The notes under the pieces are model-generated. The model did no database searches. It was given only the letters and a program-made list of their open reading frames with translations, and was not told the origin of the DNA. A program made the position numbers and the translations under genes. From positions 1,889 through 65,888 of the forward strand of contig JACQQV010000048.1 of NCBI GenBank assembly GCA_016206785.1: a stretch of 64,000 nucleotides of DNA. Reading direction: 5' to 3'. Of the stretch, positions 3 through 16,797 are shown piece after piece; the stretch's first letter is position 1; the number at the start of each line of letters is the position of its first letter. This stretch comes from Candidatus Omnitrophota bacterium (GTDB taxonomy: Bacteria; Omnitrophota; Gorgyraeia; JACQQV01).

Positions 3-647
3 CTCGAAGCGGCGAGGAAGGCCTCGGTTGACAGGATCCTCATGGTCAGTTCCGCCTGCGTCTATCCAAGATACTGCACGATTCCTACGCCGGAAAAAGA
101 AGGATTTTTAGAGGACCCGGAACCAACCAATCTGGGATACGGGTGGGCGAAACGGATCGCCGAGGTTCAAGCGAGATGCTACGCGATGGAATACAAGATG
201 AAGATCGCCCTCGTGAGACCTTATAACACCTACGGCCCGAGGGATGATTTTAGCCCTGAGACGAGTCATGTGATCCCGGCGCTCATCCGAAGGATCCTCA
301 AAGGAGAAAATCCTTTGAAAGTGTGGGGGAGTGGGGAGCAGACGAGGGCTTTTCTTTATGTGACCGATATGGTGAAAGGTCTTATGCTGGCAACCGAAAA
401 GTATCCGAACTGCGACCCTGTCAATATCGGCACAGAAGAAGAGGTAAAGATCAGAGATCTTGCCCATCAGGTTGTGAAGGTTTCTGGCAAAAATCCTGAA
501 ATCGTGTTTGAGACCGACAAACCTTCAGGTCAACCCCGGCGGAATGCGGATATCTCCAAGGCAAAGAAACTTATCGGCTATCAGCCGAGTGTTTCTCTTG
601 AAGAGGGTCTTGCCATGACCGTTGAATGGGCAAAAGAGAATCTATGA
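3..647 (+). CDS. GDP-L-fucose synthase-like NAD-dependent epimerase/reductase (Fcl/WcaG family), C-terminal part; the 5' end lies upstream of the window
   Basis: The frame is open from base 3. The C-terminal 'NTYGPRDDFSPETSHVIPALIRRI...KPSGQPRRNADISKAKKLIGYQPSVSLEEGLAMTVEW' matches the Fcl C-terminus. Confidence 0.75.
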   Translation, partial: LEAARKASVDRILMVSSACVYPRYCTIPTPEKEGFLEDPEPTNLGYGWAKRIAEVQARCYAMEYKMKIALVRPYNTYGPRDDFSPETSHVIPALIRRILKGENPLKVWGSGEQTRAFLYVTDMVKGLMLATEKYPNCDPVNIGTEEEVKIRDLAHQVVKVSGKNPEIVFETDKPSGQPRRNADISKAKKLIGYQPSVSLEEGLAMTVEWAKENL

Positions 648-1351
648 AATCGACCCTTGTGATTCTCACCCTCAATGAAATCGAAGGGATCCGAGCCGTT
701 TTTCCAAAGATCCCTCTCCACCAGGTGGATGAAGTCTTTGTGGTAGATGGGGGTTCAACAGACGGAACGATCGAGTTCTTCAAAGAAAAGGGGATTCGGG
801 TCATCGTGCAGGAAGTCAGAGGGAGAGGGGAGGCCTTTCGCATTGCGACAAGGGAGGCCCAAGGCGAACACCTTGTTTTCTTTAGCCCCGATGGAAATGA
901 GGATCCCGACGATATCCCACGTCTTTTAAAACTTCTGGACGATGGGTTCGACATGGCGATCGCATCCCGTTTTCTTAAAGGCTCCCGCAATGAAGAAGAC
1001 CAGCAATTTTTGAAGTTCCGGCGGTGGGCGAATCAAGCGTTCACGAGGACGGCGAATCTCCTTTGGGGAGGAGGTATCAGCGACACCATCAACGGTTACC
1101 GAGCGATCAGGAAACGGTCGATCCTTCAGATGGCTGTGGATGCCCCCGGCTTTGTGATTGAATATCAGATGTCGATCCGGGCGATGAAACTGCATCTTAA
1201 GGTTTCGGAGATTCCGACTCAAGAGGGAAACCGGATCGGCGGGGAAAGCAAAGCCAAATCCATTCCGACGGGCCTTGTTTTTCTGAAAGTCTTATGGCGT
1301 GAAATATGGATCGGGAACCGTTTTGGAGAAGTTCTACGGCGTTCACCATGA
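644..1351 (+). CDS. Family 2 glycosyltransferase, DPM1/ArnC-like polyprenol-phosphate sugar transferase type
   Basis: The N-terminus 'VILTLNEIEGI..VVDGGSTDGT' is a GT2 signature. The start makes an ATGA overlap with the upstream stop. Confidence 0.8.
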   Translation: MKSTLVILTLNEIEGIRAVFPKIPLHQVDEVFVVDGGSTDGTIEFFKEKGIRVIVQEVRGRGEAFRIATREAQGEHLVFFSPDGNEDPDDIPRLLKLLDDGFDMAIASRFLKGSRNEEDQQFLKFRRWANQAFTRTANLLWGGGISDTINGYRAIRKRSILQMAVDAPGFVIEYQMSIRAMKLHLKVSEIPTQEGNRIGGESKAKSIPTGLVFLKVLWREIWIGNRFGEVLRRSP

Positions 1352-15201: not shown

Positions 15202-15896
15202 CCTTTTCAGCGCACCAACCTCAGTATCTCCCCTGGATCGGCTATTTTGACAAGATCGCCAAAAGCGATCAGTTCGTTTTCTTGGATCATGTGCAGTATA
15301 AGAAAAGGGAATTTCAGAATCGAAACAAGATTCGTACACCTCGAGGAGCCCTTTGGCTCACCGTTCCCGTGATCACGAAAGGCCGTTACATGCAGCTCCT
15401 CAAGGAGGTTCAAATCGATAACTCTGTCGATTGGCCGAAAGACCATTGGGCCTCTCTCAAGACCAATTATACCAAGGCCCCTTTTTTTAAAACCTATGCC
15501 CCTTTTTTTCAGGAGACGTACGGACGGAAATGGGAGTCTCTTTCCGAACTCAATATCCATCTCATCCGGTTCCTCCTCAAATGCTTTGGCATTGCCACAC
15601 CTCTTCTCATGGAATCCCACATCGGGACGGAGACACTTTCCACGGACCGATTGATTGAACTGGCCAAAAAACTCAACGCGACCACCTATCTTTCGGGGAG
15701 TGGAGGAAAAGAATACCTGGAGGAAGGGAAATTTGAAAAAGCCAACATCCGTTTGATGTACCAAACATTTCATCACCCGACGTATCCCCAACTCTTTATG
15801 AAATCACCGACCGACTTTCTTCCTCATCTTTCTGCAGCCGATCTCTTGTTCAACAAAGGGGGGGAGGCGAAGGAGTTTTTCATTGGGCGATCTTGA
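15198..15896 (+). CDS. WbqC-family protein (O-antigen/glycan cluster-associated)
   Basis: The N-terminus '[34 protein letters not shown]' is typical of WbqC. The start makes an ATGA overlap. Confidence 0.75.
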   Translation: [232 protein letters not shown]

Positions 15897-16797
15897 AGTT
15901 TTGGATCGTTGCAATCTTTGCGGATCCGGCGACGCGGAGAAGATTTTGACCCTGCACGGCTCGAAAAGATCCCTTGAACGGTGCAGACGATGTTCACTCG
16001 TTTTTTTTAGCCTTGAAGACCGGAAGAGATTGATGGCGTATTACCAAAAACGGGACGTTTCTGCAGAAATCCATTCCACGTATCAGGAAAGTTATTCTCA
16101 TTTTTTTGAGCGTTTTTTCCACGGTCGGCGACTTTCACCGGGACGGCTTCTGGATGTCGGATGCGGACCGGGACTTTTTCTCTCCCTGGCAAGGCAAAAA
16201 GGGTGGGAGGTCCAAGGCGTTGACCCGAGCCGTACGTCGGTTGAGATGGCGCGCTCGGTCTACGGTCTTCCCATCCAGGAGGGAAGGATCGAGGAGATCT
16301 CTTTCCCGGATGAAAGTTTCGACATGGTGACCTTCTGGAATGTGCTGGATGCCTTGTCCGATCCGAAGGGTGTCCTTCGGAAGACGTACCGGTTTTTGAA
16401 AAAAGGAGGAATCCTTTTTGCCAGGGTGATCAACGTCCGTTTTCACTTAGGCCTCTATCGTCTCTGGGAATCGATGGCCCCGAAGAAAGGGAATCGCCCT
16501 CCTCCCGTCATTTTTCATGTTCACAATTTTTCCGAATCGACCCTGCGACAGATGCTCAAGCAGAGCGGATTTGAAAAAATCAAAGTGAGAAACTCTCTTC
16601 CCACTCCTGGCGATCCCTATGGGGACTCTCTCCGTTTTTCAAAAAAGGGGGTCCAACTTCAGAAAATAGTGGTTCACGGGGTTTCGGAAGCCCTTTTTTA
16701 CGGGACATTGGGCCAATTCTGTTTCGGAAGCTCCCTCTTTGCAGAGGCCCGCAGGGGGGCTAACATTTTTGATGAAAAAGTATGGGAGGTCGTGTAA
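15883..16797 (+). CDS. Class I SAM-dependent methyltransferase with N-terminal zinc ribbon (third paralog)
   Basis: The sequence 'CNLCGS..CRRCS', 'LLDVGCGPGLF' and 'LKKGGILF' was seen. The start is TTG. Confidence 0.7.
   Translation: MGDLEVLDRCNLCGSGDAEKILTLHGSKRSLERCRRCSLVFFSLEDRKRLMAYYQKRDVSAEIHSTYQESYSHFFERFFHGRRLSPGRLLDVGCGPGLFLSLARQKGWEVQGVDPSRTSVEMARSVYGLPIQEGRIEEISFPDESFDMVTFWNVLDALSDPKGVLRKTYRFLKKGGILFARVINVRFHLGLYRLWESMAPKKGNRPPPVIFHVHNFSESTLRQMLKQSGFEKIKVRNSLPTPGDPYGDSLRFSKKGVQLQKIVVHGVSEALFYGTLGQFCFGSSLFAEARRGANIFDEKVWEVV

What the first reader, a model, noticed from the sequence alone, without database searches (positions are those of the whole stretch)
3..16797. Glycan island encoding a complete Arn-like enzyme set for a formylated amino sugar
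The island combines an ArnB-like DegT aminotransferase (6825-8021), an ArnA-N-like formyltransferase domain (11820-12600), an ArnC-like GT2 (644-1351), an ArnD-like NodB deacetylase (10082-11026) and ArnT-like GT-C enzymes (1348-2958, plus 28261-29949 downstream). An alternative reading is a GDP-N-formylperosamine-like pathway, supported by the Fcl-like GDP-6-deoxyhexose enzyme at the start. Four SAM methyltransferases and FkbM add heavy O- or N-methylation. WbqC, PIG-L and WecA-like genes are also present. This may specify a non-standard modified amino-deoxy sugar transferred via a polyprenol carrier to lipid A, an S-layer or pilin.
Basis: inference. Interest (0 to 1): 0.6.

Follow-up and report, generated by a model that had tools for sequence, protein, structure and literature searches.

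The report
Surface polysaccharide locus, not Arn
This is a large gene cluster for a heavily modified surface polysaccharide in an uncultured Omnitrophota bacterium; it is not a lipid A aminoarabinose (Arn) pathway, because its supposed aminotransferase is really a deoxysugar dehydratase and its formyltransferase is fused to a glycosyltransferase.

Summary
They are not an Arn set. No protein approaches any Arn family cut-off. There is no Ugd, no decarboxylase and no ArnE/F. The "ArnB-like" DegT (6825-8021) has His in place of the Schiff-base Lys, as in the ColD/E1 3-dehydratases. Its closest relatives lie in Gmd-DegT(His)-Fcl-like trios, so together with the Fcl-like gene at 3-647 it most likely makes a GDP-3,6-dideoxyhexose.

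DNA recovered upstream of the window adds Wza-, Wzc-, Wzy- and Wzx-like genes. The whole is therefore a roughly 29 kb Wzx/Wzy-type surface polysaccharide locus started by a WecA-like enzyme.

The formyltransferase domain keeps its Asn-His-Asp triad. It is fused to a GT4 glycosyltransferase, an architecture found almost only in Omnitrophota and always alongside a cytoplasmic CE4 deacetylase.

The stretch 11820-19400 belongs to a GT4-PHP-WbqC-PIG-L-(DegT)-WecA operon conserved in at least eight phyla; its product is unknown.

This locus encodes no aminotransferase, so the formyl acceptor is unresolved. I judge this a new variant of a known kind, of moderate interest.

The parts
3..647 (+). C-terminal two thirds of an Fcl/ColC-like extended SDR (the full gene is 322 aa and starts upstream of the window). 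Probable GDP-4-keto-(3,)6-deoxyhexose epimerase/reductase.
   Evidence: Pfam Epimerase E 3e-34. NCBIfam Fcl is the best model: 162 bits for the partial protein and 211 bits full length, against a cut-off of 500. It is 32.5% identical to the Fcl-like gene that follows DegT(His) in L087.
644..1351 (+). Soluble GT2, DPMS/AglJ-like polyprenyl-phosphate hexosyltransferase.
   Evidence: Pfam GT2 E 7e-20. AglJ 113 bits; ArnC only 23 bits against a cut-off of 529. The only PDB hit is P. furiosus dolichol-phosphate mannose synthase 5mlz, 59.8 bits. No TM segment.
1348..2958 (+). GT-C fold (PMT_2) membrane glycosyltransferase with an 'NHDE' acidic motif after TM1. Probable user of the polyprenyl-P-sugar made by the preceding gene.
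   Evidence: Pfam PMT_2 E 9e-11. Agl23-like 39 bits. No PDB sequence hit at E <= 1. Sequence read. Six or more hydrophobic segments.
2955..4829 (+). GT2 glycosyltransferase fused to a class-I SAM methyltransferase.
   Evidence: Pfam GT2 E 6e-21 (residues 4-172) and Methyltransf_23 E 1e-27 (residues 386-530).
4810..5889 (+). GT9 (heptosyltransferase-family) glycosyltransferase.
   Evidence: Pfam Glyco_transf_9 E 1e-36. Heptosyltransferase II model 122.5 bits against a cut-off of 134.6. Recurs in related loci at 27-41% identity.
5891..6823 (+). Class-I SAM methyltransferase.
   Evidence: Pfam Methyltransf_23 E 2e-20.
6825..8021 (+). DegT-family protein with His192 (codon 7398-7400) in place of the Schiff-base Lys. 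ColD/E1-type PMP-dependent NDP-4-keto-6-deoxyhexose 3-dehydratase, without the E1 Fe-S cysteines.
   Evidence: Pfam DegT E 7e-96. RfbH is the best NCBIfam model (249 bits); ArnB scores 160 against 631. The His aligns with Lys186 of perosamine synthase and His220 of E1. His is conserved in 129 of 146 nearest cluster representatives. Gmd-DegT(His)-Fcl neighbourhoods and SDR fusions.
8030..8884 (+). GT2 glycosyltransferase.
   Evidence: Pfam GT2 E 4.5e-11. Gene call in L001.
8868..10085 (+). GT4 glycosyltransferase.
   Evidence: Pfam Glycos_transf_1 E 5e-36 and Glyco_transf_4 E 9e-19.
10082..11026 (+). Cytoplasmic CE4 (NodB/PgaB-like) de-N-acylase with TFDDG and HTMSH motifs. Co-occurs with the formyltransferase fusion in related loci.
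   Evidence: Pfam Polysacc_deac_1 E 5e-25. PgaB is the best NCBIfam and PDB match, and no ArnD-named hit appears. Sequence read. No hydrophobic N-terminus. FT/CE4 co-occurrence in 8 of 8 loci plus L091.
11030..11815 (+). FkbM-family methyltransferase.
   Evidence: Pfam Methyltransf_21 E 6.5e-16. TIGR01444 scores 74.9 bits against a cut-off of 37.7.
11820..13760 (+). Bifunctional protein. The N-terminal formyltransferase domain spans about 11820-12600, with catalytic Asn148, His150 and Asp186 (codons 12261-12263, 12267-12269, 12375-12377). The C-terminal GT4 glycosyltransferase carries an E547-x7-E555 motif.
   Evidence: Pfam Formyl_trans_N E 1.5e-26 and Glycos_transf_1 E 4e-45. PDB alignments to FMT and ArnA. 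Triad conserved in 19 of 20 family members. Full-length homologues occur almost only in Omnitrophota.
13753..15201 (+). Membrane-anchored PHP / CehA-McbA-like metallo-phosphoesterase. Member of the conserved operon; role unknown.
   Evidence: Pfam PHP E 7e-6. CehA_McbA 61.8 bits against a cut-off of 80. Hydrophobic N-terminus and an internal TM. 30-39% identity in more than 35 related loci.
15198..15896 (+). WbqC-family protein (PF08889), uncharacterised. Conserved partner of the GT4 and PIG-L.
   Evidence: Pfam E 3e-78. AF2 model pLDDT 92.8 with no significant PDB neighbour. 40-54% identity in related loci. A GT4-WbqC-lmbE triad also occurs in Streptomyces.
15883..16797 (+). Class-I SAM methyltransferase (a gene caller starts it at 16033).
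   Evidence: Pfam Methyltransf_23 E 2.5e-28. Gene call in L001.
16809..17624 (+). AAA_22 ATPase related to the XrtA/PEP-CTERM-locus ATPase.
   Evidence: Pfam AAA_22 E 1.4e-16. TIGR03015 scores 216.6 bits against a cut-off of 324.5. 45-58% identity in some related loci.
17635..18270 (+). PIG-L/LmbE-family metal-dependent de-N-acetylase (AHPDD and HQDH motifs), cytoplasmic.
   Evidence: Pfam PIG-L E 2e-24. BshB1 116 bits against a cut-off of 182.5. Sequence read. 45-61% identity across phyla and 84% in L089.
18267..19400 (+). WecA/MraY-family polyprenyl-phosphate HexNAc-1-phosphate transferase. Probable initiating enzyme.
   Evidence: Pfam Glycos_transf_4 E 2e-32. WecA model 84.6 bits against a cut-off of 326. 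About ten hydrophobic segments.
28261..29949 (+). GT-C (PMT_2-like, FVWDD motif) plus TPR membrane protein inside the type IV pilus cluster. Possible second consumer of polyprenyl-P-sugar. Its association with the island is inferred only.
   Evidence: TPR Pfam hits. No Pfam hit for the N-terminal domain itself. Homologues carry PF13231 or PF02366. D37 and D38 are conserved. AF2 pLDDT 91.4. hhalign to 1348-2955 gives 77.7% probability.

Best explanation
The finding is the downstream two thirds of a roughly 29 kb, single-strand surface polysaccharide (EPS, capsule or O-antigen-like) locus. It is of the Wzx/Wzy type with Wza/Wzc export, and it belongs to an uncultured Candidatus Omnitrophota bacterium.

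Proposed mechanism. Steps marked (shown) rest on sequence tests made here. Steps marked (inferred) follow from family knowledge.

1. Initiation. A WecA/MraY-family transferase (18267-19400) puts a HexNAc-1-phosphate on undecaprenyl phosphate (inferred).
2. Elongation. Cytoplasmic GT4, GT2 and GT9 enzymes extend the lipid-linked repeat unit (inferred).
3. Deoxysugar donor. One donor is a GDP-3,6-dideoxyhexose of the colitose type. It is made by the His-type DegT (6825-8021) and the Fcl/ColC-like SDR (3-647). The Lys-to-His change, the lack of Fe-S cysteines and the Gmd-DegT(His)-Fcl neighbourhoods of relatives are shown. The identity of the sugar is inferred, and Gmd must be encoded elsewhere.
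4. Tailoring. This uses three cytoplasmic de-N-acetylases (PIG-L 17635-18270, CE4 10082-11026, and one more CE4 upstream), methyltransferases, and the formyltransferase domain fused to a GT4 (11820-13760). An intact catalytic triad is shown. About 73 kb around the locus contains no Lys-type sugar aminotransferase. The locus-encoded source of a free amine is therefore de-N-acetylation. I think the fused protein adds a HexNAc-type sugar whose amine, once freed by PIG-L or CE4, is N-formylated on the lipid-linked intermediate (inferred; about 40% likely). The classical alternative is formylation of an NDP-amino sugar made by an unlinked gene.
5. Export. The unit is flipped by Wzx, polymerised by the Wzy_C protein, and exported through Wzc/Wza. 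The genes are shown upstream; their roles are inferred.
6. Periplasmic decoration. The DPMS-like GT2 (644-1351) makes a polyprenyl-phosphate hexose that the adjacent GT-C (1348-2958) transfers in the periplasm as a side decoration (inferred).

The stretch 11820-19400 is a local version of a GT4-PHP-WbqC-PIG-L-(DegT)-WecA operon conserved in at least eight phyla. Its product is unknown.
For: Locus type:
- The upstream contig L086 is 100% identical over window 1-3405. It carries Poly_export, Wzz/GNVR/AAA_31 (tyrosine autokinase domain model 183 bits against a cut-off of 108), Wzy_C, PMT_2, a Polysacc_synt flippase, MTase, CE4, GT4 and the full-length SDR.

DegT is a dehydratase:
- His192 aligns with Lys186 of GDP-perosamine synthase (3bn1; the K186A mutant is 3dr4) and with His220 of E1 (3bcx; the H220K mutant is 3bb8).
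- 129 of the 146 nearest cluster representatives that aligned across this position share the motif FSTYxAHxxxTGVGG. Lys appears only at 37% identity or lower.
- The review PMC8987622 states that Lys-to-His is the defining difference between 3-dehydratases and aminotransferases, and that ColD lacks the Fe-S cluster.
- L087 reads Gmd-DegT(His)-Fcl-like, and L088 reads Gmd-DegT(His).
- SDR-DegT(His) fusions exist.

No aminotransferase:
- The only DegT-like hit in the window is this gene.
- At least 35 related loci carry the Lys form 'FSFYATK..GEGG', and none of the other loci scanned carries a His-type.

FT-GT4:
- The triad is conserved.
- Fusions are restricted to Omnitrophota.
- CE4 accompanies FT in 8 of 8 loci of at least 8 kb plus L091.
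- CE4 and PIG-L lack hydrophobic N-termini. In L003 the CE4 is fused between a SAM-MTase and a GT4, so it must be cytoplasmic.

Conserved operon.

GT2/GT-C pair: DPMS is the only PDB hit for the GT2; PMT_2 for the GT-C.
Against: - No Gmd is present in the roughly 73 kb available, so the deoxysugar branch is incomplete in cis.
- The His-type subfamily has GVGG instead of GEGG. It scores higher against perosamine synthase and E1 (195-201 bits) than against ColD (about 150 bits). Its substrate and product are therefore not established.
- SpnQ, another His-type enzyme, can transaminate when no reductase is present. Some amino sugar formation by this protein is therefore not excluded.
- Every other FT-GT4 locus examined has a Lys-type DegT next to WbqC. 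This fits the classical NDP-amino-sugar formylation model, and this MAG may simply encode that gene elsewhere.
- Wzy_C proteins can be ligases or O-oligosaccharyltransferases rather than polymerases.
- The FT/CE4 co-occurrence comes from one clade with shared synteny, so the loci are not independent observations.
- All of this is sequence inference from a metagenome-assembled genome. No glycan structure is known.
Confidence: 0.7

Rival explanations
1. This is the classical sugar N-formyltransferase route. An NDP-4-keto-6-deoxyhexose is aminated by a Lys-type DegT encoded elsewhere in this genome. The FT domain formylates the NDP-amino sugar, and the fused GT4 transfers the formamido sugar straight to the lipid-linked glycan. 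The CE4 may later remove the formyl group, as ArnD does. In effect this is an Arn-like formylate-transfer-deformylate cycle grafted onto an EPS pathway.
For: - All characterised relatives of the FT domain that act on sugars use NDP-amino sugars: ArnA, the GDP-perosamine formyltransferase 5vys, QdtF and WlaRD are all hit.
- Every other FT-GT4 locus has a Lys-type, PseC/ArnB-like DegT two genes away.
- FT and CE4 are gained together, as ArnA-FT and ArnD work together.
- A GT2/PMT_2 pair is also present in those loci.
Against: - This window has no Lys-type DegT in 64 kb, nor in the 9.4 kb upstream.
- Its syntenic relative L089 has the DegT but neither FT nor CE4.
- Lys-type DegT is nearly universal in the FT-less operons too, so its presence is not linked to FT.
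- The FT is fused to a GT4, not to or beside the ArnC-like GT2.
Confidence: 0.35
2. The island is an Arn-type pathway that builds a formylated 4-amino sugar on undecaprenyl phosphate and transfers it by ArnT-like GT-C enzymes to lipid A (or to an S-layer protein or pilin).
For: Members of the five superfamilies are present: DegT, Formyl_trans_N, GT2, CE4 and GT-C. The GT2 is of the polyprenyl-phosphate type.
Against: - All Arn family scores are far below their cut-offs.
- DegT has His instead of Lys.
- There is no Ugd, no UDP-GlcA decarboxylase and no ArnE/F-like small membrane protein; no unassigned ORF space is left in 1-19400.
- The GT-C has no detectable similarity to the solved ArnT.
- The locus carries Wza, Wzc, Wzy and Wzx.
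Confidence: 0.03
3. The locus makes a lipid-linked oligosaccharide for protein glycosylation rather than an exported polymer. The target would be type IV pilin or other proteins. The upstream Wzy_C protein would act as a PglL/TfpO-type O-oligosaccharyltransferase, and/or the GT-C+TPR protein (28261-29949) would glycosylate pilins from polyprenyl-phosphate sugar.
For: - The locus lies directly upstream of a complete type IV pilus cluster in both this genome and its relative L089.
- A GT-C+TPR gene sits between pilC and the pilin genes.
- Wzy_C domains are shared by O-oligosaccharyltransferases (established knowledge).
Against: - Wzc-like autokinase and Wza-like export genes are hallmarks of polymer export.
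- The two clusters are separated by HD-GYP-like and GGDEF regulatory genes.
- No pilin glycosylation evidence can be obtained from sequence alone.
Confidence: 0.12

Closest known systems
Arn (PmrHFIJKLM) lipid A 4-amino-4-deoxy-L-arabinose pathway of E. coli and Salmonella
   Same: It uses a formyltransferase-fold domain with the Asn-His-Asp triad, a CE4 de-N-acylase acting in the cytoplasm, a GT2 that loads a sugar on polyprenyl phosphate, and a GT-C enzyme that uses it in the periplasm.
   Different: No protein here is an Arn orthologue by NCBIfam cut-offs. The DegT member is a His-type dehydratase. There is no Ugd, decarboxylase or ArnE/F. The FT is fused to a GT4 instead of a decarboxylase. 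The locus has Wzx/Wzy/Wza/Wzc and many further glycosyltransferases.
GDP-L-colitose pathway (Gmd, ColD, ColC) and the E1/SpnQ sugar 3-dehydratases
   Same: It has a DegT-fold protein with His in place of the catalytic Lys and without Fe-S cysteines (ColD-like), paired with an Fcl/ColC-like SDR. Close relatives sit in Gmd-DegT(His)-Fcl trios.
   Different: This is a distinct subfamily, with motif AHxxxTGVGG and only about 150 bits to ColD. Gmd is not in the locus. The two genes are about 6 kb apart rather than adjacent. The product sugar is unknown.
Wzx/Wzy-dependent group 1-type capsule/EPS loci with Wza-Wzc export (and XrtA/PEP-CTERM-type EPS loci)
   Same: It has an initiating polyprenyl-phosphate transferase, multiple GTs, a Wzx flippase, a Wzy_C protein, a Wzc-like PCP/autokinase and a Wza-like exporter. 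It also has sub-threshold matches to PEP-CTERM-locus models: ATPase TIGR03015, GT stp2 TIGR03088, and in relatives the AsnB-like amidotransferase.
   Different: No exosortase or PEP-CTERM protein is seen. All PEP-CTERM model scores are below cut-off. It carries an unusual load of de-N-acetylases, methyltransferases and GT-C enzymes.
Sugar N-formyltransferases (ArnA N-domain, WbkC/GDP-perosamine FT, VioF, FdtF/QdtF, WlaRD, Rv3404c)
   Same: Same fold and catalytic triad. Similar, low similarity to all of them (38-63 bits), and to Met-tRNA formyltransferase (73 bits).
   Different: It has a roughly 50-residue insertion in the N-terminal subdomain and is fused to a GT4. No cognate aminotransferase is in the locus. 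It shows no closer affinity to any characterised sugar formyltransferase than to FMT.
GT4 plus LmbE/PIG-L 'add GlcNAc, then de-N-acetylate' modules (PIG-A/PIG-L in GPI anchors, MshA/MshB in mycothiol, BshA/BshB in bacillithiol)
   Same: A GT4 with its best equivalog-type hits to BshA and MshA, and a PIG-L with its best hit to BshB1, are kept together in one operon across phyla.
   Different: Scores are below the family cut-offs. The context is a WecA-initiated, lipid-linked polysaccharide rather than a small thiol. A WbqC protein and a membrane PHP protein are added, and here a formyltransferase domain as well.
GtrA/GtrB/Gtr* O-antigen glucosylation and DPMS/PMT systems
   Same: A DPMS-like GT2 is immediately followed by a GT-C enzyme, which is the standard pair for periplasmic or luminal glycosyl transfer from polyprenyl-phosphate sugar.
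   Different: The GT2 lacks the C-terminal membrane helices of GtrB, ArnC and archaeal DPMS. No GtrA-like flippase gene is present. The acceptor is unknown.

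Membership tests
Arn pathway | ArnB: PLP-dependent UDP-4-keto-pentose aminotransferase with a Schiff-base lysine | tested here: not met
   His192 occupies the Lys position and is conserved in the subfamily. The ArnB model scores 160 bits against a cut-off of 631.
Arn pathway | ArnA: formyltransferase domain fused to a UDP-GlcA oxidative decarboxylase, plus Ugd | tested here: not met
   An FT domain with the N-H-D triad is present but is fused to a GT4. 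The ArnA model scores 99 bits against 777, with only model positions 40-203 matched. The SDR at 3-647 is Fcl-like; ArnA scores 38-61 bits on it. No Ugd is found among the annotated ORFs.
Arn pathway | ArnC: undecaprenyl-phosphate Ara4FN transferase | tested here: not met
   The ArnC model scores 23.3 bits against a cut-off of 529. The best models are AglJ-like and DPMS-like.
Arn pathway | ArnD deformylase, ArnE/F flippase and ArnT transferase | tested here: not met
   The CE4 protein matches PgaB, IcaB and NodB models only. No small membrane ORFs are left unassigned. The GT-C matches only PMT_2 and Agl23, and no solved chain at E <= 1.
GDP-N-formylperosamine pathway (Gmd, Per, WbkC) | Per: GDP-4-keto-6-deoxymannose 4-aminotransferase with the catalytic Lys; Gmd in the locus | tested here: not met
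   The best PDB match is perosamine synthase (201 bits), but its Lys186 is replaced by His. There is no Gmd in the window or in the 9.4 kb upstream.
Sugar 3-dehydratases (ColD/E1/SpnQ) | Aminotransferase fold with His replacing the catalytic Lys | tested here: met
   The criterion is taken from PMC8987622.
Sugar 3-dehydratases (ColD/E1/SpnQ) | ColD type: no [2Fe-2S] cysteine motif; partnered with Gmd and a ColC/Fcl-like reductase | tested here: inconclusive
   The cysteine-rich stretch of E1 is absent. An Fcl-like SDR is in the locus. Relatives are flanked by Gmd and Fcl-like genes. But Gmd is absent here, and similarity to ColD itself is only about 150 bits.
Formyltransferase superfamily (N10-formyl-THF dependent) | Asn-His-Asp catalytic triad within the HxSLLPxxRG-type motif | tested here: met
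   'SLNLHLGLLPKYRG' and 'IDHG' align with the FMT and ArnA motifs. N148, H150 and D186 are conserved in 19 of 20 fusion homologues.
Sugar N-formyltransferases acting on NDP-amino sugars | A cognate NDP-sugar aminotransferase supplying the substrate; activity on an NDP-amino sugar | tested here: inconclusive
   No Lys-type DegT in this locus, but one is present in all other FT-GT4 loci. Enzyme activity cannot be tested with these tools.
Wzx/Wzy-dependent polysaccharide locus with Wza/Wzc export | Initiating polyprenyl-phosphate transferase, Wzx flippase, Wzy-type protein, PCP/autokinase and an OPX exporter in one co-directional cluster | tested here: met
   Glycos_transf_4 at 18267-19400. Upstream in L086: Polysacc_synt, Wzy_C, Wzz/GNVR/AAA_31 (TIGR01007 scores 183 bits against a cut-off of 108) and Poly_export. 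Contiguity is proven by a 100% identical overlap.
XrtA/PEP-CTERM EPS locus | Exosortase, PEP-CTERM proteins and locus-specific equivalogs above cut-off | tested here: not met
   TIGR03015 scores 216.6 against 324.5, TIGR03088 207.7 against 409, and TIGR03007 and TIGR03018 are also below cut-off. No exosortase is found in the window.
GT-C glycosyltransferases (PMT_2 type) | Multi-span membrane protein with an acidic DE/DD motif in the first periplasmic loop; PMT_2 profile match | tested here: met
   For 1348-2958: PMT_2 E 9e-11, an 'NHDE' motif, and six or more hydrophobic segments. For 28261-29949: homologues carry PF13231, D37 and D38 are conserved, and hhalign gives 77.7%.

The most novel reading that the evidence does not exclude
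The conserved GT4-WbqC-PIG-L core is a module that edits N-acyl groups on a lipid-linked glycan. It would work like the first steps of mycothiol, bacillithiol and GPI synthesis: add GlcNAc, strip the acetyl group, then re-functionalise the amine. In Omnitrophota the re-functionalising step has been hard-wired by fusing a formyltransferase to the GT4. In sister proteins a CE4 and a methyltransferase are fused to another GT4 in the same way. N-acetyl would thus be swapped for N-formyl (or N-methyl) after glycosyl transfer, not at the nucleotide-sugar stage. This would be a mode of formamido-sugar biogenesis that has not been described. It would also give the uncharacterised WbqC family (predicted fold without a solved neighbour) a role at the freed amine.
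Probability: 0.25. Interest if true: 0.65.

Novelty: new variant of a known kind. Interest (0 to 1): 0.4.

Why it matters
- It corrects an attractive but wrong annotation. "DegT/aminotransferase" labels hide a large His-type, ColD-like dehydratase subfamily. Its nearest 50%-identity cluster representatives almost all carry the His, and none that I know of has been characterised. Glycan predictions that assume an amino sugar from such genes will be wrong.
- It defines a formyltransferase-GT4 fusion family that is essentially restricted to Omnitrophota. These are ultra-small, possibly host-dependent bacteria whose surface chemistry is unknown.
- It exposes a GT4-PHP-WbqC-PIG-L-DegT-WecA operon shared by Nitrospirota, Aminicenantes, Latescibacterota, Syntrophales, Desulfobacterales, NC10, Nitrospinota and Omnitrophota. 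Its product and two of its enzymes (WbqC and the membrane PHP protein) are uncharacterised.
- If formylation occurs after de-N-acetylation on the lipid carrier, that would be a new route to N-formyl sugars.
- If it does not, the locus is an ordinary, if ornate, EPS cluster.

Tried and rejected
- The fold search of the GT-C+TPR model returned only TPR proteins and said nothing about the membrane domain. I relied on homologue annotations and hhalign instead.
- A look-up of the GT2 from its first ATG (626) found nothing. The 644 start worked.
- Literature searches for WbqC and for formyltransferase-glycosyltransferase fusions found no functional study. They gave only the Streptomyces GT4-WbqC-lmbE operon legend.
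- I considered a low-molecular-weight thiol pathway (BshA/BshB-like hits) and rejected it. The operon always includes a WecA-like membrane transferase and sits inside polysaccharide loci.
- I considered an E1-type CDP-dideoxyhexose pathway for the DegT and rejected it. The Fe-S cysteines are missing, and relatives pair with Gmd rather than with a cytidylyltransferase.
- I considered a horizontally acquired island and rejected it on uniform GC content, housekeeping flanks and conserved synteny with L089.

Full report
**Observation**

From position 3 to about 19400 every long ORF lies on the + strand, and most overlap their neighbours by a few bases.

| Coordinates | Call |
|---|---|
| 3-647 | Fcl-like SDR (runs off the window start) |
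| 644-1351 | GT2 |
| 1348-2958 | PMT_2 GT-C |
| 2955-4829 | GT2 + methyltransferase fusion |
| 4810-5889 | GT9 |
| 5891-6823 | methyltransferase |
| 6825-8021 | DegT-family protein |
| 8030-8884 | GT2 |
| 8868-10085 | GT4 |
| 10082-11026 | CE4/NodB |
| 11030-11815 | FkbM |
| 11820-13760 | Formyl_trans_N + GT4 fusion |
| 13753-15201 | PHP / CehA-McbA-like membrane protein |
| 15198-15896 | WbqC |
| 15883-16797 | methyltransferase |
| 16809-17624 | AAA_22 ATPase |
| 17635-18270 | PIG-L |
| 18267-19400 | WecA/MraY-like transferase |

I count three class-I methyltransferase domains plus FkbM, not four. The exact protein sequences occur in an NCBI record named Candidatus Omnitrophica bacterium, on a 134,963-bp contig, and in two public sequencing runs. 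GC content is flat, and the far side of the window is housekeeping. "Island" therefore describes a gene cluster, not a compositional anomaly.

**Is it an Arn set?**

None of the proteins approaches an Arn family cut-off:

| Model | Score (bits) | Cut-off | Note |
|---|---|---|---|
| ArnB | 160 | 631 | |
| ArnC | 23 | 529 | |
| ArnA | 99 | 777 | only the formyltransferase part matches |

- The CE4 protein matches PgaB, IcaB and NodB models, and PgaB structures, but nothing named ArnD.
- The GT-C matches only PMT_2 and Agl23, and no solved chain at E <= 1.
- There is no Ugd, no UDP-GlcA decarboxylase, and no room for ArnE/F-like genes.

**The DegT protein**

The decisive point is the DegT protein.
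- In the HMMER alignments its motif FSTYIAHYIVTGVGG puts His192 opposite Lys186 of GDP-perosamine synthase. That column is Ala in the K186A entry 3dr4.
- The same His lies opposite His220 of the E1 3-dehydrase. That column is Lys in the H220K entry 3bb8.
- A published review states that this Lys-to-His substitution is the key difference between sugar 3-dehydratases (E1, ColD, SpnQ) and aminotransferases. It also states that ColD, unlike E1 and SpnQ, has no Fe-S cluster (PMC8987622).
- The window protein lacks the cysteine-rich stretch of E1.
- In a search of 1.84 billion cluster representatives, 129 of the 146 best hits that aligned across this position have His in this column. Lys appears only at 37% identity or below.
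- Members of this His subfamily are fused to Fcl/RmlD-like SDR domains.
- The two relatives whose contexts I could read sit in Gmd-DegT(His)-Fcl-like (L087) and Gmd-DegT(His) (L088) arrangements. The L087 Fcl-like gene is 32.5% identical to the window's SDR.

The DegT gene and the SDR at 3-647 therefore most likely form a colitose-type GDP-3,6-dideoxyhexose branch. Gmd itself is not in the 73 kb I could see. No other DegT-like gene exists in the window.

**What the cluster is**

A contig from the same sample overlaps window 1-3405 at 100% identity and extends 9.4 kb upstream. In order, it carries:
- a Poly_export (Wza-like) gene;
- a Wzz/GNVR/AAA_31 protein that passes the tyrosine-autokinase domain model (183 bits against a cut-off of 108);
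- a Wzy_C protein;
- another PMT_2 protein;
- a Polysacc_synt flippase;
- a methyltransferase, a second CE4 and a GT4;
- the full-length SDR (Fcl model 211 bits against a cut-off of 500).

Together with the WecA-like initiating enzyme, this is the full inventory of a Wzx/Wzy-dependent, Wza/Wzc-exported surface polysaccharide locus of about 29 kb.

**The formyltransferase**

The FT domain aligns with Met-tRNA formyltransferase (73 bits), ArnA (63 bits), the GDP-perosamine formyltransferase (58 bits) and QdtF (57 bits). It has no clear preference among them, and it keeps the Asn148-His150-Asp186 triad. About 25 full-length FT-GT4 homologues at 35-43% identity exist. The triad is conserved in 19 of the 20 I aligned. 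In a scan of one genome per species, full-length matches came almost only from Omnitrophota.

**Comparative context**

I ran tblastn of the window's proteins against 85 related loci. It shows two operon types:

| Type | Distribution | Gene order | Missing |
|---|---|---|---|
| B | Nitrospirota, Aminicenantes, Latescibacterota, Syntrophales, Desulfobacterales, NC10, Nitrospinota and some Omnitrophota | GT4-PHP-WbqC-PIG-L-DegT(Lys)-WecA | FT, CE4 |
| A | Omnitrophota only | [MTase-CE4-GT4]-(PMT_2)-FT-GT4-PIG-L-WbqC-DegT(Lys)-WecA-GT2 | PHP |

- FT and a strong CE4 hit co-occur in 8 of 8 loci of at least 8 kb, and again in L091. These loci share ancestry, so they are not independent.
- The DegT of both types is Lys-bearing ('FSFYATK..GEGG') and PseC/ArnB-like.
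- The window is a mosaic. It has the FT-GT4, CE4 and a methyltransferase of type A. It has the PHP, WbqC, PIG-L (45-61% identity across phyla) and WecA of type B. It has no Lys-type DegT.
- Its closest syntenic relative, L089, has PIG-L at 84% identity and PilT at 80%. Its order is GT9-GT4(no FT)-PHP-WbqC-DegT(Lys)-MTase-PIG-L-WecA-HD-GGDEF-pilus genes.
- Relative to that genome, the window gained the CE4-FkbM-FT block and has an ATPase where the DegT lies.

**Mechanism**

I commit to a WecA-initiated, Wzx/Wzy-assembled heteropolysaccharide. It would contain a 3,6-dideoxyhexose, methylated sugars and de-N-acetylated hexosamines, at least one of which is N-formylated.
- The CE4s and PIG-L have no hydrophobic N-terminus. 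In type A loci the CE4 is fused between a SAM-methyltransferase and a GT4, so these de-N-acetylases work in the cytoplasm.
- The locus encodes three de-N-acetylases and no aminotransferase. The simplest self-contained reading is that the fused GT4 adds a HexNAc-type residue, PIG-L or CE4 frees its amine, and the FT domain formylates it on the lipid carrier.
- I give this about 40%. The classical route is formylation of an NDP-amino sugar from an unlinked aminotransferase, possibly followed by ArnD-like deformylation. It is about equally likely, because every other FT-GT4 locus has a Lys-type DegT nearby.
- The DPMS-like GT2 has P. furiosus DPMS as its only PDB hit. With the adjacent GT-C it is a standard pair for periplasmic decoration from polyprenyl-phosphate sugar. 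That is where the cluster truly "works like" ArnC/ArnT.

**Unknowns**

- WbqC gave a confident AF2 model (pLDDT 92.8) with no significant PDB neighbour by Foldseek. The literature calls the family uncharacterised.
- A GT4-WbqC-lmbE triad also occurs beside a ProRS paralogue and an unusual tRNA in Streptomyces (PMC10404621). This supports a functional unit of GT4, de-N-acetylase and WbqC.
- The membrane PHP protein and the product of the conserved operon are also unknown.

**Verdict**

The domains are real, but the Arn interpretation is not supported, and its aminotransferase premise is refuted. What is there is a new variant of a known kind: an EPS or capsule-type locus with an Omnitrophota-specific formyltransferase-glycosyltransferase fusion, a ColD-like dehydratase mislabelled as an aminotransferase, and a widely conserved operon of unknown product. 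Interest is moderate.

Noticed in passing
window 22074-39777: A complete type IV pilus cluster lies directly downstream. It has a PilT-like ATPase, a stand-alone MshEN domain protein (23160-23621), two tandem MshEN+T2SSE PilB/MshE-type ATPases (23633-25348 and 25350-27050) and PilC. It continues with three N_methyl pilins (30169-30609, 30689-31138, 31604-32461), two large PilX_N-like proteins, PilM, PilO and a secretin (38179-39777).
   Followed up: partly
window 28261-29949: A GT-C (PMT_2-like, conserved FVWDD loop motif) plus TPR membrane protein sits between pilC and the pilin genes. This recalls pilin glycosyltransferases such as TfpW. Its AF2 model is confident (pLDDT 91.4), and it is homologous to the island GT-C (hhalign 77.7%). 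It could use the polyprenyl-P-sugar made by the GT2 at 644-1351.
   Followed up: partly
window 19447-22042: An HD_5 (HD-GYP-like) protein and a HAMP-GAF-GGDEF diguanylate cyclase lie between the polysaccharide locus and the pilus cluster, whose ATPases carry c-di-GMP-binding MshEN domains. The same arrangement is conserved in the relative L089. This suggests joint c-di-GMP control of polysaccharide and pili.
   Followed up: no
L016, L022, L025, L030, L039, L044, L053, L070, L077 and others (for example L053:10013-16158): A GT4-PHP-WbqC-PIG-L-DegT(Lys)-WecA operon is conserved, with PIG-L at 45-61% identity, in MAGs of Nitrospirota, Aminicenantes, Latescibacterota, Syntrophales, Desulfobacterales, NC10, Nitrospinota and Omnitrophota. 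It often sits next to an AsnB-like 'XrtA/PEP-CTERM amidotransferase' and a GT9. I found no description of its product.
   Followed up: partly
window 6825-8021; P0361-P0510: The His-type DegT subfamily (motif FSTYxAHxxxTGVGG, with Val replacing the usual Glu of GEGG) is large. It occurs fused to SDR, GT4, GT2+MTase or MTase domains. Public records name such proteins aminotransferases.
   Followed up: yes
L003:5312-8323 and L005:5439-10004: Omnitrophota relatives encode giant fusions: SAM-methyltransferase + CE4 deacetylase + GT4 (1003 aa) and MurJ-like flippase + methyltransferase + CE4 + GT4 (1521 aa). These imply cytoplasmic de-N-acetylation coupled to glycosyl transfer.
   Followed up: no
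window 15198-15896: The WbqC family protein has a high-confidence predicted fold with no significant solved neighbour. The weak best match is a HUP-type cytidylyltransferase. Invariant residues include H6, Q7, D30, N41, R42, N43, D74, H83 and an S166-G-x-G-G motif.
   Followed up: partly
L087:5599-6894: The contig carrying the nearest DegT(His) relative also encodes a genuine E1-type dehydrase ('FSFYPAHHITMGEGG' plus a Cys-rich 'RDCWCRTGQDNNC' stretch) beside an NTP_transferase. That organism therefore appears to make two different dideoxyhexoses.
   Followed up: no
window 42242-63280: The rest of the window is housekeeping: obg, proB, proA, a nadD-like gene, two CNNM/CorC, argS, an mfd-like gene, a SurA-like gene, pdxA, ksgA, gatA, gatB, a Ctp protease, tsaD and mgtC. 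All are on the + strand, giving an unbroken co-directional run of about 64 kb with steadily rising cumulative GC skew.
   Followed up: no
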